Below are positions 5,650 through 20,098 of a stretch of 64,000 nucleotides of DNA, in pieces. A program made the translations under genes and the position numbers. Every line of letters begins with the position of its first letter. Positions within the stretch are counted from its first letter, which is position 1. This DNA comes from Chloroflexota bacterium (GTDB taxonomy: Bacteria > Chloroflexota > UBA11872 > VXNJ01): the NCBI GenBank assembly GCA_965261345.1, contig OZ253449.1, forward strand, positions 1,824,001 to 1,888,000, in the 5' to 3' direction. The notes below the pieces were generated by a model. It was not told the DNA's origin. It worked only from the letters and a program-made list of their open reading frames with translations, and searched no databases.

Positions 5650-6558
5650 ATGGAAATAATCGAGCGCCTGCGCGGTTCAATGCCGGCGATGGTCACCCCG
5701 CTCGGTGACGATTACAAGGCGGATTTGGCGGCCGCGGCGCGCCTGATTGGCTTCTACATCGAATCGGGTTCGCACGGCGTGGTGGTGTTGGGCAGCTCGG
5801 GCGAATTCCAGGGCGTTCGCTACGCCGACCGGGCTGGTCTGTTGTCGGCTGCAGTGGAAGCCGCGGCCGGCCGCATCCCGGTAATAGCCGGCGCCGGTCT
5901 GCCTAATCTGTGGGCAACCATCGACCAGGTAAAGCAGGCTGCCGACTGTGGCGCCGACGCCGCCCTGGTGACACCGCCCTATTACTTTCCGATCGACCAG
6001 GACGCGATAGTGGATTGGTTTACGCGGTTGGTCGGCGCGGTGGATCTTCCAGTTCTCTATTACCACTTCCCGACGATGACCAAACTAGCGGCCAATCCCG
6101 ACACGGTTGGGCGCTTGGCCGATTGCGGAGTGTGCGGTCTAAAGGACTCGGGTGGATCGACCGCTTGGCTGCACGCCGTTCTGGGCCGCGTGGGCGAGCG
6201 TCGCGACTTTCGACTGTTCTTGGGTGGCGACGGGCATTTGCTAGATGCACTAATTCACGGTGCCGATGGTTGCATCGGATTGGCCCAGAATCTGATTCCG
6301 CACATATCGGCCCAACTGTACGAGGCATATTGCGAGGGTGACCTGGGAACTGCGGTCGAACTTCAGCGGCACGCGGTCGAATTTGGCGCCAGGCTGCAAA
6401 CTGGCACCCTGGGACAACCATTCGCCAAAGCCGTGCTGTCGCATATGGGATTGTGCTCACCAGTCGTGGCTCCGCCTATGAAGGCCCTTTCACCGGCCGC
6501 GGCATCGGCCGCATTCGGCCGAGTCGAAAAATATTTGCTGATCCCGACCAGCGCCTGA
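5650..6558 (+). CDS. Dihydrodipicolinate synthase-family aldolase/dehydratase (probably not DapA)
   Basis: 'PAMVTPL', 'GSSGE', 'IPVIAGAG' and Schiff-base Lys in 'GLKDS'. The DapA substrate Arg after the YN(V)P motif is replaced (YHFPTMT). ATG at 5650. Confidence 0.85.
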   Translation: MEIIERLRGSMPAMVTPLGDDYKADLAAAARLIGFYIESGSHGVVVLGSSGEFQGVRYADRAGLLSAAVEAAAGRIPVIAGAGLPNLWATIDQVKQAADCGADAALVTPPYYFPIDQDAIVDWFTRLVGAVDLPVLYYHFPTMTKLAANPDTVGRLADCGVCGLKDSGGSTAWLHAVLGRVGERRDFRLFLGGDGHLLDALIHGADGCIGLAQNLIPHISAQLYEAYCEGDLGTAVELQRHAVEFGARLQTGTLGQPFAKAVLSHMGLCSPVVAPPMKALSPAAASAAFGRVEKYLLIPTSA

Positions 6559-17085: not shown

Positions 17086-18714
17086 ATGGCCAAGCAAGTA
17101 GCGCTCGACGCCGAAGCCCGCAAGCTTTTGCTTCAGGGTATCGACACTGTAGCCAACGCGGTTCGAACCACCCTGGGGCCCAAGGGTCGCAATGTAGCGC
17201 TTGGCAAAAAGTTCGGTGCACCGACGGTTACCCATGACGGAGTCACCGTAGCCAAAGAAATCGAACTTGAGCAGCCCTTCGAGAACATGGGCGCGCAGCT
17301 TATCAAGGAAGCCGCTTCCAAAACTAACGACGTCGCCGGCGACGGCACCACGACCGCCACAGTCTTGGCACAGACCATCCTCAAGGAAGGACTGCGCAAC
17401 GTGGCCGCCGGGTCCAACCCGATGATCATCAAGCGCGGAATCGCCAAGGGCGTCGATGCGCTGGTTGAAAACCTCAAAGGCCAGGCCAAGCAGATCAAGG
17501 GCACCGAGGAAATCGCCCAGATCGCCTCGATTTCGGCTGCTGATGCCGAAATCGGCAACATGATCGCCAAGGTCATGGACAAAGTCGGTAAAGACGGGGT
17601 GATCACGGTTGAGGAGTCCAAGGGACTCGAACTTGAAGACGACTACGTCGAAGGACTGCAGTTTGACCGCGGTTACCTGTCGCCGTATTTTGTAACCGAC
17701 CAGGACCGCATGGAGTCGCAAATCGAGGATCCCTACATCCTCATTACCGACGGGAAGATCTCGGCGGTGTCGGACATCCTGCCAACCCTTGAAAAAGTTA
17801 CCCAGGGCGGCAAGAAGGATTTCGTCGTAATCGCCGAGGACATCGAGGGTGAGGCGTTGGCCACCCTGGTCGTTAACAAGCTGCGTGGAATCCTCAATTG
17901 CCTGGCGGTCAAAGCGCCCGGTTACGGTGATCGCCGAAAAGAGCTCCTCCAAGACATTGCAATCATCACCGGCGGCACCGTCATCGCCTCCGATATGGGC
18001 CGCACCCTCGATAGCGTAATCGTCGAGGACCTGGGGCGTTCGCGGCGTGTATTTGCCACCAAGGATGAGACCACCATCGTCGAGGGCGTCGGTACCGACG
18101 AATCTCGGCTCGGTCGCATCAAGCAGCTGGATGCCCAAATCCGCGAGGCCACTTCCGACTATGACCGCGAAAAGCTCGAGGAACGCAAAGCCAAGCTCTC
18201 CGGCGGCGTCGCGATCATTCGCGTCGGCGCGGCAACCGAAACCGAGCAGAAGGAAAAGCAGCACCGCGTGGAAGATGCCATTTCGGCAACCCAGGCGGCG
18301 ATTGAGGAGGGCATCGTAGCCGGCGGCGGAGTCGCCCTGGTCAACGCCCTGGAAGCCCTCGATACGGTACAGGTCGACGGCGATGAGTCGGCCGGAATTC
18401 GCGCACTGCGCCGGGCGTTGGTTTCACCGCTTGAGTACATTGCCGAAAATGCCGGTCACGACGGCGGGGTTGTAGTACAAGAGGTTCGCCGTCTCCATGT
18501 CGAATCCGGCAACGCCTTCATCGGTTTTGACGTGATAACTGAAGACTATGTAAACATGTTCGACGCCGGCATAATCGACCCCTTAAAGGTCACCCGCTCG
18601 GCTTTGGAAAACGCGGCCTCTATCGCCAGCATGATCCTGACCACCGAAGCGCTGATTGCCGACCTGCCGGAGGAAAACGCGCCTGCCGCCGCCGGGCCGG
18701 AGATGGGTTACTAG
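17086..18714 (+). CDS. groEL: Chaperonin GroEL
   Basis: 'TLGPKGRNV', 'DGVTVAKEI', 'AGDGTTTAT' and '[10 protein letters not shown]'; SD GAGGGAG upstream. Confidence 0.99.
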
Positions 18715-18741: not shown

Positions 18742-18777
18742 AAACGCCCCGGTCGCCTGCAGGCGACCGGGGCGTTT
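18742..18777. terminator. Bidirectional intrinsic terminator between groEL and the convergent darA-like gene
   Basis: Perfect 36-bp palindrome AAACGCCCCGGTCGCCTGCAGGCGACCGGGGCGTTT with A and T runs at the ends. Confidence 0.85.
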
Positions 18778-18805: not shown

Positions 18806-19090
18806 TTAGACCCGGGTGAAGTTGGCCAGGTTTGAAACCATGATCCAGCCGCCGCTCTTGCCGGCATGGGCGCGCACCGCGGCGATCGCCCGCCCGACAT
18901 CCTCGCTGGCGACTCCAATCAAAAACGTGACATTACCGCGCCGCAGGAAGCCGCCGGCGGTGTTGATGCGAGTTACCCGCAACCCCTCGGCTAGCAGGCC
19001 CTGTTGTAGTCGATCGGCCGCGGCGTGGGTAACGATCGCCAATAAGGCCTTGGTTACGGTTGCAGCCGTCGGCGGGGATTGATCGGGCAT
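18806..19090 (-). CDS. Cyclic-di-AMP receptor, PII-like (DarA/PstA family), shortened
   Basis: 'KALLAIV...RVTRINTAGGFLRRGNVTFLIGV' matches the DarA/PstA signature TGGFL-xx-GNTT-F-xIG. ATG at 19090. Confidence 0.85.
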   Translation of the reverse strand: MPDQSPPTAATVTKALLAIVTHAAADRLQQGLLAEGLRVTRINTAGGFLRRGNVTFLIGVASEDVGRAIAAVRAHAGKSGGWIMVSNLANFTRV

Positions 19091-19234: not shown

Positions 19235-20098
19235 ATGCGTAGCGCAACCACGCTGAACAGGTCTCAGCCGCGCACCCACTTGATCCTGCATGCTGCCGCA
19301 TTCGTGCTGGGTTTTACCGCATTGTTTTCAATTGCCGGATTCTCGTTCGGCATTGTTGGCAGCCTGGTTGACGAATATCGACCGATCATCAACGTGGTGG
19401 TGGGTCTGGCGCTGGCTGTTTTCGGCCTGCACATGGCCGGTCTTTTCCGCGAGTTGGCCTTCCGCCTAGCCGGACCCGCCGGTCCCGGTCGATTCGACCT
19501 GCTGCGCCGCGCGGTTGCCGGCGCCAGCGCCAGGTTGGCAGGTGTCCTGTACCGCCAGGGTCAGGTTGAGTTTTCCCCGACCCGGTCCGGTTACCGTTCC
19601 TCGTTTGCGGTTGGCGTTGCTTTCGCCCTCGGGTGGACACCTTGCGTGGGTTTTATTCTGGGCGGCATCCTCACCGCGGCCTACAACACCGAATCTGTTT
19701 TTGCGGCCTACCTATTACTGGTTGCCTACTCGCTCGGCCTGGGCATTCCCTTCCTGGCACTGGCGGCATTTACCGACCGGCTGCAGGGACCGCTGGCGGC
19801 AATGAGCCGCCGATCAAACCTGATTGCAATCATTTCTGGATTGCTGCTGACCGTCTTCGGTCTTTTCATCGCCTTCGACCTGGTTGGCCTGCTCTCGACC
19901 TACCTGTTGGCGGTCCCCTTCATAAGCGATGAATTCCTGCTCGACAGCTCGTCTAACATCGGCGTCTCCTGGCTGGTTCCGTCATTTGTGGCCGGATTAC
20001 TCTCATTCCTCTCGCCCTGCGTGCTACCGCTGGCCCCGGTCTACCTGGCGCATTTGACGGCCCGAGTTTCAGCCGATCAAATTGGCGTTGCCCCGTAG
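19235..20098 (+). CDS. ccdA: CcdA/DsbD-TM-type membrane thiol-disulfide transporter, circularly permuted
   Basis: Both redox motifs are present but in swapped order: GWTPCVGFILG is central and AGLLSFLSPCVLPL is C-terminal. Also 'LHAAAFVLGF' and 'AYSLGLGIPFL'. Confidence 0.85.
   Translation: MRSATTLNRSQPRTHLILHAAAFVLGFTALFSIAGFSFGIVGSLVDEYRPIINVVVGLALAVFGLHMAGLFRELAFRLAGPAGPGRFDLLRRAVAGASARLAGVLYRQGQVEFSPTRSGYRSSFAVGVAFALGWTPCVGFILGGILTAAYNTESVFAAYLLLVAYSLGLGIPFLALAAFTDRLQGPLAAMSRRSNLIAIISGLLLTVFGLFIAFDLVGLLSTYLLAVPFISDEFLLDSSSNIGVSWLVPSFVAGLLSFLSPCVLPLAPVYLAHLTARVSADQIGVAP

What the first reader, a model, noticed from the sequence alone, without database searches (positions are those of the whole stretch)
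19235..20098. Circularly permuted CcdA: the first redox-cysteine helix has moved to the C-terminus
Established: CcdA begins with TM1 'AF.AG.LSF.SPCVLPL.P.YL', followed by TM2 'FVLGF' and later TM4 'GWTPC.GP.LG'. Seen: this ORF starts at TM2 (HLILHAAAFVLGFTALF), passes GWTPCVGFILG and TM5-6, then a linker (STYLLAVPFISDEFLLDSSSNIG), and ends with SFVAGLLSFLSPCVLPLAPVYLAHL. The open frame upstream to 19133 has no SPC motif, so this is not a missed start. Inference: a natural permutant joining the old C- and N-termini, which is topologically feasible for an even-TM protein. It changes which loops are covalently linked during the conformational cycle. The Pro after the central CxG is also replaced by Phe, and no thioredoxin/ResA or ccs gene is adjacent.
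Basis: partly seen in the sequence, partly recalled or inferred. Interest (0 to 1): 0.75.

Follow-up and report, generated by a model that had tools for sequence, protein, structure and literature searches.

The report
Naturally reshuffled membrane electron shuttle CcdA
A small membrane protein that carries electrons out of the cell has its first helix moved to the end of the chain, and the same reshuffle, in two forms, turns up in many microbes and seems to have arisen more than once.

Summary
Confirmed. The ORF at 19235-20098 (+, 287 aa) is a CcdA in the order TM2-TM3-TM4-TM5-TM6-linker-TM1. Against solved CcdA 5VKV, its C-terminus matches residues 5-33. A second class starts at TM4 (120 of 120 hits). 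Both classes join the old outside termini and cut in an inside loop. Trees interleave permuted and normal proteins; one origin is rejected (AU p=3.9e-6), though core recombination or reversion may inflate the count. Both cysteines are kept, and 35 of 78 loci carry a thioredoxin-fold gene, so it most likely works as an ordinary CcdA. Activity and the Cys-Cys distance are untested. No paper reporting this was found in the open library. New variant of a known kind.

The parts
19235..20098 (+). Circularly permuted ccdA gene, class A (TM2-3-4-5-6-linker-TM1), 287 aa
19280..19447 (+). TM2-TM3 hairpin, now N-terminal; the preceding Arg-rich tail is predicted inside
   Evidence: matches 5VKV 40-94; charge counts; coordinates
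19448..19591 (+). Lengthened TM3-TM4 inside loop (helical hairpin in the model, 9 K/R); similar length in normal-order sister proteins
19592..19687 (+). TM4 with redox Cys137 (codon 19643-19645) in GWTPCVGF; second Pro replaced by Phe140
19697..19879 (+). TM5, basic inside loop, TM6
19880..19963 (+). New junction: old C-terminal helix joined to the old N-terminus; acidic (0 K/R, 3 D/E), predicted outside
19964..20083 (+). TM1 moved to the C-terminus: broken helix with redox Cys262 (codon 20018-20020) in SPCVLP
   Evidence: matches 5VKV 5-33; helix 244-258, unwound 259-265, helix 266-283 in the model

Best explanation
It is a working CcdA-type transmembrane thiol-disulfide electron shuttle whose chain is circularly permuted. 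The six helices are inferred to keep their normal orientation, so that C137 (TM4) and C262 (TM1) form the redox pair that takes electrons from cytoplasmic thioredoxin and hands them to an outside thioredoxin-fold partner encoded elsewhere. What changes is connectivity: the two old outside termini are joined by a linker of about 30 residues, and new termini open in an inside loop (TM1-TM2 in class A, the window's class; TM3-TM4 in class B). The protein therefore goes from N-out/C-out to N-in/C-in, and the new TM6-to-TM1 link mirrors the native TM3-to-TM4 link of the inverted repeat. The rearrangement most likely arose several times from local normal ccdA genes, probably by tandem duplication, fusion and trimming. 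Shown: order, conservation, spread, two cut classes, non-monophyly. Inferred: topology, Cys pairing, activity, the duplication route.
For: Swapped order against 5VKV and by HMM in 196 of 196. Both P-C motifs invariant in 119 aligned class A proteins at 27-74% identity to the window protein. Charges: window N-tail 3 K/R and 0 D/E, TM3-4 loop 9 K/R, junction 0 K/R and 3 D/E; in 72 class A loci the junction averages 0.9 K/R vs 2.2 D/E and the N-tail 2.2 vs 0.65. AlphaFold2 with 119 permuted rows: pLDDT 82.4, pTM 0.77, C-terminal TM1 modelled as a helix broken at SPCVLP; Foldseek's top PDB hit is 5VKV (E 0.015). Neighbours: thioredoxin-fold gene in 35 of 78 loci, same strand within 1.5 kb in 25 of 78; 45 of 47 such CxxC proteins have a hydrophobic segment ahead of the motif; cytochrome c assembly gene in 12 of 78. 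All 120 long homologs examined (of 251 found), nearly all thioredoxin fusions, are normal-order, as expected if permutation removes the outside termini. Junction span G209-to-Cys has median 51.5 aa vs median 46 for the symmetric G64-to-Cys span. Origins: at least 10 changes forced by strongly supported branches in a 62-row IQ-TREE, at least 6 in a 223-row FastTree, AU p=3.9e-6 against one clade; a roughly 100-aa TM3-TM4 insertion left out of the tree is shared by normal P0145/P0146/P0222 and permuted P0133/P0134/L013/L041; normal P0200 ranks 1 of 150 for tail, head and loop against permuted P0185.
Against: No activity data. The Cys-Cys distance was not measured. Structural matches to 5VKV are weak: Foldseek E 0.015, above the 0.001 line; VIA-align Z 5.2, rmsd 5.6, 181 aligned, rank 26 among unrelated helical proteins, and they cover only TM2-TM6. 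TM4 is modelled as one unbroken helix and its PCxxP is PCxxF. The window and its syntenic relatives L008 and L046 have no redox partner gene nearby. No duplicated intermediate (two TM1 or two TM4 motifs) among 503 sequences. The 62 tree rows were picked after seeing the FastTree and are enriched for mixed pairs. For 6 of 13 permutants tested the TM1 module is nearest to another permutant; for 3 of these (P0133, P0134, P0124) the core is nearest to a normal protein, which fits core recombination or reversion. The window protein itself shows no junction similarity to its normal sister P0113 (ranks 97, 27, 32 of 150).
Confidence: 0.8

Rival explanations
1. The protein is a working permuted CcdA, but the permutation arose once or twice. 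Its scattered position on the tree comes from transfer, recombination of the TM2-TM6 core with resident normal copies, and reversions.
For: For P0133, P0134 and P0124 the TM1 module is nearest to other permutants while the core is nearest to normal proteins. 100 of 120 loci are in one phylum. No duplication intermediates were seen in 503 sequences. Change counts cannot tell gain from loss.
Against: For 7 of 13 tested (P0185, P0139, P0237, P0141, P0233, L022, and L003 by a tie) the TM1 module is nearest to a normal protein. P0185's linker and C-tail match the tail, head and loop of normal P0200. Two different cut sites exist. AU rejects one clade, though that test assumes no recombination.
Confidence: 0.2
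2. The window's clade has kept the fold but changed job or lost efficient electron transfer (for example a metal- or redox-sensing role), as hinted by the Pro-to-Phe change, the long inside insertion and the housekeeping neighbourhood.
For: PCxxF in TM4, modelled as an unbroken helix; neighbours are groEL, a DarA-like gene and pheA, with no thioredoxin; P-type ATPase genes lie near 17 of 78 permuted loci.
Against: Only two Cys, both invariant; that Pro position varies in 60 of 181 normal-order proteins; the insertion is shared with normal-order sisters; other permutants sit next to exported thioredoxin-fold genes.
Confidence: 0.12
3. Misassembly or a decayed gene.
For: Reads were not available. 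Two of 120 loci (L030, L078) are frameshifted, as is one protein hit (P0009).
Against: 118 of 120 loci from 117 record titles are in frame, 8 in records titled chromosome; 50 of the 120 best protein hits share the order; the gene lies in the same neighbourhood in L008 and L046 at 42-50% identity.
Confidence: 0.01

Closest known systems
CcdA (DsbD family, Pfam PF02683; Thermus thermophilus CcdA, PDB 5VKV)
   Same: All six helices are present and homologous; two P-C motif cysteines in TM1 and TM4; a 3+3 inverted repeat as described in PMC7329351 and PMC10319644 (passages read) and detectable here for TM2-3 vs TM5-6 (hhalign probability 75%); relatives lie next to TlpA/ResA-like genes.
   Different: TM1 is C-terminal (class A) or the halves are swapped (class B); old termini are joined; predicted N-in/C-in; the TM4 motif is PCxxF in the window; the TM3-TM4 region is about 29 aa longer than in compact CcdAs.
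DsbD, ScsB and CcdA-thioredoxin fusions (DipZ-like; that name is recalled)
   Same: Same membrane electron-transfer domain (PMC3322552, passages).
   Different: They carry outside domains on the termini that the permutant has joined; 120 of 120 long homologs examined keep normal order.
DsbB/VKOR proposed circular permutation (PMC4555120, passages)
   Same: Helical membrane thiol-redox proteins related by permutation, proposed to arise by duplication and deletion.
   Different: That case is one ancient, structure-inferred event between families. Here it is plain at sequence level within one family, at two cut sites, and apparently repeated.
Engineered permutants of membrane proteins (bacteriorhodopsin, PMC3879442, passages)
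   Same: Show that helical membrane proteins tolerate re-threading, and that circular permutation needs an even helix count.
   Different: Artificial; those here are natural and conserved.

Membership tests
CcdA (DsbD family) | Match to the DsbD_TM profile above the curated cutoff | tested here: met
   PF02683 39.7 bits vs cutoff 27.1; 5VKV E 1.3e-24
CcdA (DsbD family) | Six membrane helices, no fused alpha or gamma domain | tested here: met
   All six 5VKV helices matched; HMM columns 9-40 and 48-237 covered; model helices; no other Pfam domain
CcdA (DsbD family) | Two conserved redox cysteines, in TM1 and TM4, each after a Pro | tested here: met
   P136-C137 and P261-C262 invariant in 119 of 119 rows
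CcdA (DsbD family) | Second Pro of the PCxxP motif in both helices (motif as stated in PMC10319644) | tested here: inconclusive
   TM1 has PCVLP; TM4 has PCVGF. The position also varies in 60 of 181 normal-order family members, so it is not strictly defining
CcdA (DsbD family) | Internal 3+3 inverted repeat | tested here: inconclusive
   TM2-3 vs TM5-6 hhalign probability 74.7%, E 2.6e-5; TM4 vs TM1 only 7% though the P-C motifs align
CcdA (DsbD family) | CcdA fold with both Cys close together in the membrane | tested here: inconclusive
   Model pTM 0.77; 5VKV top in Foldseek at E 0.015; VIA Z 5.2, rmsd 5.6, 181 aligned, TM2-6 only; no coordinates for a distance
CcdA (DsbD family) | Transfers electrons from cytoplasmic thioredoxin to an outside thioredoxin-fold protein | not testable with these tools
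   Only context: 35 of 78 relatives have such a gene nearby; none in the window
Normal-order CcdA (form, not family) | Helix order TM1 to TM6 along the chain | tested here: not met
   Order is TM2-6 then TM1; filed as a permuted variant for this reason
DsbD / ScsB | Periplasmic alpha and gamma domains and eight membrane segments | tested here: not met
   287 aa, DsbD_TM only

The most novel reading that the evidence does not exclude
CcdA has been circularly permuted many times independently, in Chloroflexota, Archaea and other bacteria, always by sealing the two outside termini and reopening an inside loop, because that topology is favoured (easier N-in membrane insertion, or a tether on TM1 that mirrors the TM3-TM4 link and suits the elevator motion). 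This would be a natural, replicated experiment on re-threading a membrane transporter.
Probability: 0.4. Interest if true: 0.85.

Novelty: new variant of a known kind. Interest (0 to 1): 0.72.

Why it matters
Natural circular permutations of helical membrane proteins are rarely reported: PMC4555120 called its DsbB/VKOR case the first. Here one family shows two sequence-evident permutant classes across over a hundred species and apparently repeated origins. The proposed elevator motion of TM1 and TM4 in CcdA still awaits confirmation (PMC7329351). Natural variants in which TM1 is tethered at its outside end and free at its inside end, or in which the repeat halves are swapped, constrain which loops must be covalently linked and give ready-made constructs to test the mechanism. 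They also allow a direct test of whether first-helix orientation drives gene rearrangement. Where sources name these proteins they call them plain CcdA or cytochrome c biogenesis proteins, so the rearrangement is hidden by annotation.

Tried and rejected
Missed upstream start or separate TM1 upstream: no SPC motif in any frame except 20012; rejected. Misassembly: rejected. Pro-to-Phe as a result of permutation: rejected. Tandem or terminally redundant intermediates: none in the 120 long hits examined of 251, nor among 503 sequences; weak evidence, as the long search starts at 540 aa and scored 8000 candidates. First AlphaFold run with 47 rows was poor (pLDDT 69.4) and its VIA match to 5VKV was tied with unrelated chains (Z 4.7). 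Docking the C-terminal TM1 (240-283) onto TM2-6 (12-236) as two chains gave no verdict (score 0.02); it is not counted either way. Covariation in 119 rows (Neff 55) put A149-F251 (TM4 end with TM1 start) joint first, but the list is noisy and is not relied on. Plasmid tblastn: the 15 rows shown of 343 cover only the TM2-6 part; the 4 records covering 80% or more were not inspected. Repeats and promoter scans near the junction showed nothing above chance. Source names for the closest protein clusters could not be obtained, so the window's own lineage rests on synteny with L008 and L046. Metagenome and viral contig collections stayed unchecked. Whether genomes with a permuted copy also hold a normal ccdA was tested only in flanks (none in 78 loci).

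Full report
Observation. The ORF 19235-20098 (+) gives 287 aa with exactly two cysteines, C137 (GWTPCVGF) and C262 (SFLSPCVLP). phmmer against PDB sequences returned one hit at E<=1, T. thermophilus CcdA 5VKV, in three stretches: query 17-71 to 40-94, 121-227 to 111-213, and 247-275 to 5-33. Pfam DsbD_TM scores 39.7 bits over a cutoff of 27.1. No SPC motif lies upstream in any frame, the 97% identical P0002 is called with a different upstream reading, P0003 starts at the equivalent Met, and a divergent DarA-like gene starts at 19090. The order TM2-3-4-5-6-linker-TM1 is therefore real and not a missed start.

Spread. Of the 120 best hits in the protein search, 50 are permuted, 69 normal and 1 frameshifted. 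Of the best 150 representatives at 50% identity, 27 are permuted by motif order, 28 with P0139. A DNA pattern requiring the TM4 motif ahead of the TM1 motif matched once in the window and in 0 of 100 shuffles. In GTDB species genomes it stopped at the limit of 120 loci: 118 are in-frame permuted genes and 2 are frameshifted copies, from 117 record titles, 8 of them titled chromosome. By title, 100 are Chloroflexota (Anaerolineae 45, Dehalococcoidia 20), 15 Archaea (Woesearchaeota, Nanoarchaeota, Nitrososphaerales, unnamed) and 5 other bacteria. The pattern was designed on known permutants and needs exact motifs, and the scan was cut off, so these are lower bounds and the proportions are rough. 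The window's larE-JAB-groEL-darA-ccdA-pheA neighbourhood recurs in L008, and darA-ccdA-pheA in L046, both titled Chloroflexota; this suggests, but does not show, the window's phylum.

Two cut classes. An HMM from 72 normal CcdAs shows swapped order in 196 of 196 permuted and 0 of 181 normal sequences. Class A (112 of 118 loci; the window's class) starts at columns 39-56 and its TM1 block ends at 40-53 in 72 complete loci, so the cut is in the TM1-TM2 loop. Class B (6 of 118, five titled Dehalococcoidia and one Chloroflexi) reads TM4-5-6-TM1-2-3, cut near columns 122-130 in the TM3-TM4 loop; a search with L032 returned 120 of 120 listed hits in this order. Both classes share the TM6-to-TM1 junction.

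Topology (inferred). DsbD's membrane domain is preceded by a periplasmic domain (PMC3322552, passages), so TM1 runs outside to inside, and six helices put the C-terminus outside too; the C-terminal thioredoxin fusions seen fit this. In the window protein the N-tail has 3 K/R and 0 D/E, the TM3-4 loop 9 K/R, the TM5-6 loop 3 K/R, and the junction 0 K/R and 3 D/E; across 72 class A loci the junction averages 0.9 K/R and 2.2 D/E. So helix orientation is kept, the outside termini are sealed, and both classes become N-in/C-in. The span from the TM6 glycine G209 to the TM1 Cys has median 51.5 aa, close to the median 46 for its symmetry mate G64 to the TM4 Cys (118 of 119 rows); in the window these are 53 and 73, because of an inside insertion. 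All 120 long homologs examined of 251 found are normal-order, as expected if a permutant has no outside terminus to carry a domain.

Structure. With 47 rows the model was poor (pLDDT 69.4). With 119 permuted rows it reached pLDDT 82.4 and pTM 0.77, with the C-terminal TM1 as helix 244-258, unwound 259-265, helix 266-283, while TM4 is one helix, 120-151. Broken TM1 and TM4 are described for CcdA (PMC11965370, passages), so TM1 fits and TM4 does not. Foldseek ranks 5VKV first but only at E 0.015; VIA-align gives Z 5.2, rmsd 5.6, 181 aligned (13-237 on 36-224), rank 26. These aligners follow chain order and cannot place TM1. No coordinates are returned, so the Cys-Cys distance is untested.

Function. 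Both P-C motifs are invariant in 119 rows. In 78 loci with flanks, 35 have a thioredoxin-fold gene (TlpA/ResA-like or DsbA-like by Pfam on representatives), 25 on the same strand within 1.5 kb; among 48 loci with at least 3 kb on both sides, 22 have one. 45 of 47 such CxxC proteins have a hydrophobic segment ahead of the motif. A cytochrome c assembly gene is near 12 of 78. The window has neither among 52 ORFs scanned, nor do L008 and L046, so its partner is unknown. The Pro after CxG is kept in 99 of 196 permuted sequences and absent in 60 of 181 normal ones. The window clade's sister group is normal-order CcdA with Val or Ile there (support 97/92; close hits of that type are named Limnocylindrales), so the change appears to predate the permutation.

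Origins. Segments were mapped to 204 HMM columns; 11 of 377 sequences were dropped for gaps and the rest reduced to 223 at 80% identity. FastTree needs 19 changes of order, at least 6 forced by strong branches. IQ-TREE on 62 rows, which I picked after seeing that tree and which are enriched for mixed pairs, needs 18 changes, at least 10 forced for class A, and at least 9 with TM1 left out. The AU test rejects all 35 permutants as one clade (log-likelihood 354.6 lower, p=3.9e-6). Evidence outside the tree columns: a roughly 100-aa TM3-TM4 insertion is shared by normal P0145, P0146, P0222 and permuted P0133, P0134, L013, L041. In 7 of 12 sister pairs the normal protein's tail ranks in the top 5 of 150 against the permutant's linker, and P0200/P0185 ranks first for tail, head and loop; these segments overlap the tree columns by a few residues, and the window's own pair shows no such signal. 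Against a high count: of 13 permutants, 7 have a normal protein as nearest TM1 module (one by a tie) and 6 a permutant; for P0133, P0134 and P0124 the core is nearest to normal proteins, which fits recombination or reversion. No sequence among 503 has a doubled TM1 or TM4 motif, so the duplication route is inferred from general knowledge of circular permutation, not seen.

Comparison with the known. It is a CcdA-family member by profile, helix content and cysteines, and most likely works like CcdA, for which an elevator motion of TM1 and TM4 is proposed (PMC7329351, passages). It departs from the normal form in chain order. Papers seen as keyword passages only: PMC7329351, PMC11205269, PMC3322552, PMC10319644, PMC4555120, PMC4608589, PMC3879442, PMC11965370, bioRxiv 10.1101/2022.09.07.506916. 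The primary CcdA structure papers were not read and are known here only through these. Searches for a permuted CcdA (related searches, listings only) found no report: one search's single paper holds the terms only in its reference list, and one search listed 40 of 93. The library lacks most subscription papers, and supplements were not searched, so a prior mention cannot be excluded. The names DipZ, TlpA and ResA for neighbours are recalled labels placed on Pfam thioredoxin-fold matches.

Verdict. A real, conserved and widespread natural circular permutation of CcdA, in two classes and probably of repeated origin. New variant of a known kind; function probably ordinary; the evolutionary pattern and its use for testing the mechanism carry the interest (0.72).

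Noticed in passing
L003:5682-6521 (-), L014, L032, L039, L092, L111; proteins P0190, P0199, P0210, P0386-P0504: Second permutant class with the repeat halves swapped (TM4-5-6-TM1-2-3), in Dehalococcoidia; many have an extra Cys in the TM1 motif (PCCLP in 75 of 120).
   Followed up: partly
window 18806-19090 (-): DarA-like cyclic di-AMP receptor gene (PF06153, profile 2-64 of 109) divergent from the permuted ccdA; 94 aa and possibly shortened; also upstream in L008 and L046.
   Followed up: partly
25 of 78 loci, e.g. L004:5175-5933 (-): A DUF2085 membrane protein gene lies near, often directly after, the permuted ccdA; a candidate partner or substrate of unknown function.
   Followed up: no
archaeal loci L022, L035, L040, L042, L047, L056, L058, L073: Permuted ccdA is adjacent to a membrane-anchored thioredoxin-fold gene with a Y(S/T)CINC motif, resembling the thioredoxin part of DipZ (recalled) as a separate gene.
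   Followed up: partly
P0133, P0134, L013, L041 (permuted); P0145, P0146, P0222 (normal): CcdA subfamily with a roughly 100-aa hydrophobic insertion between TM3 and TM4, present in both helix orders.
   Followed up: partly
L003 and L032; L051 and L080; L029 and L091: Three genomes carry two permuted ccdA copies each.
   Followed up: no
L030 and L078, around 6001-6384: Frameshifted copies of the permuted gene; sequencing error or pseudogene not distinguished.
   Followed up: partly
window 18742-18777: Perfect 18-bp hairpin after groEL, between groEL and the convergent DarA-like gene; likely a terminator.
   Followed up: no
window 17086-18714: groEL without an adjacent groES ORF in the listing of ORFs of 70 aa or more.
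   Followed up: no
P0356, P0360, P0363, P0364, P0367, P0370: Normal-order CcdA fused to a domain matching PF14870/PF15902 rather than thioredoxin; in P0356 it lies N-terminal.
   Followed up: no
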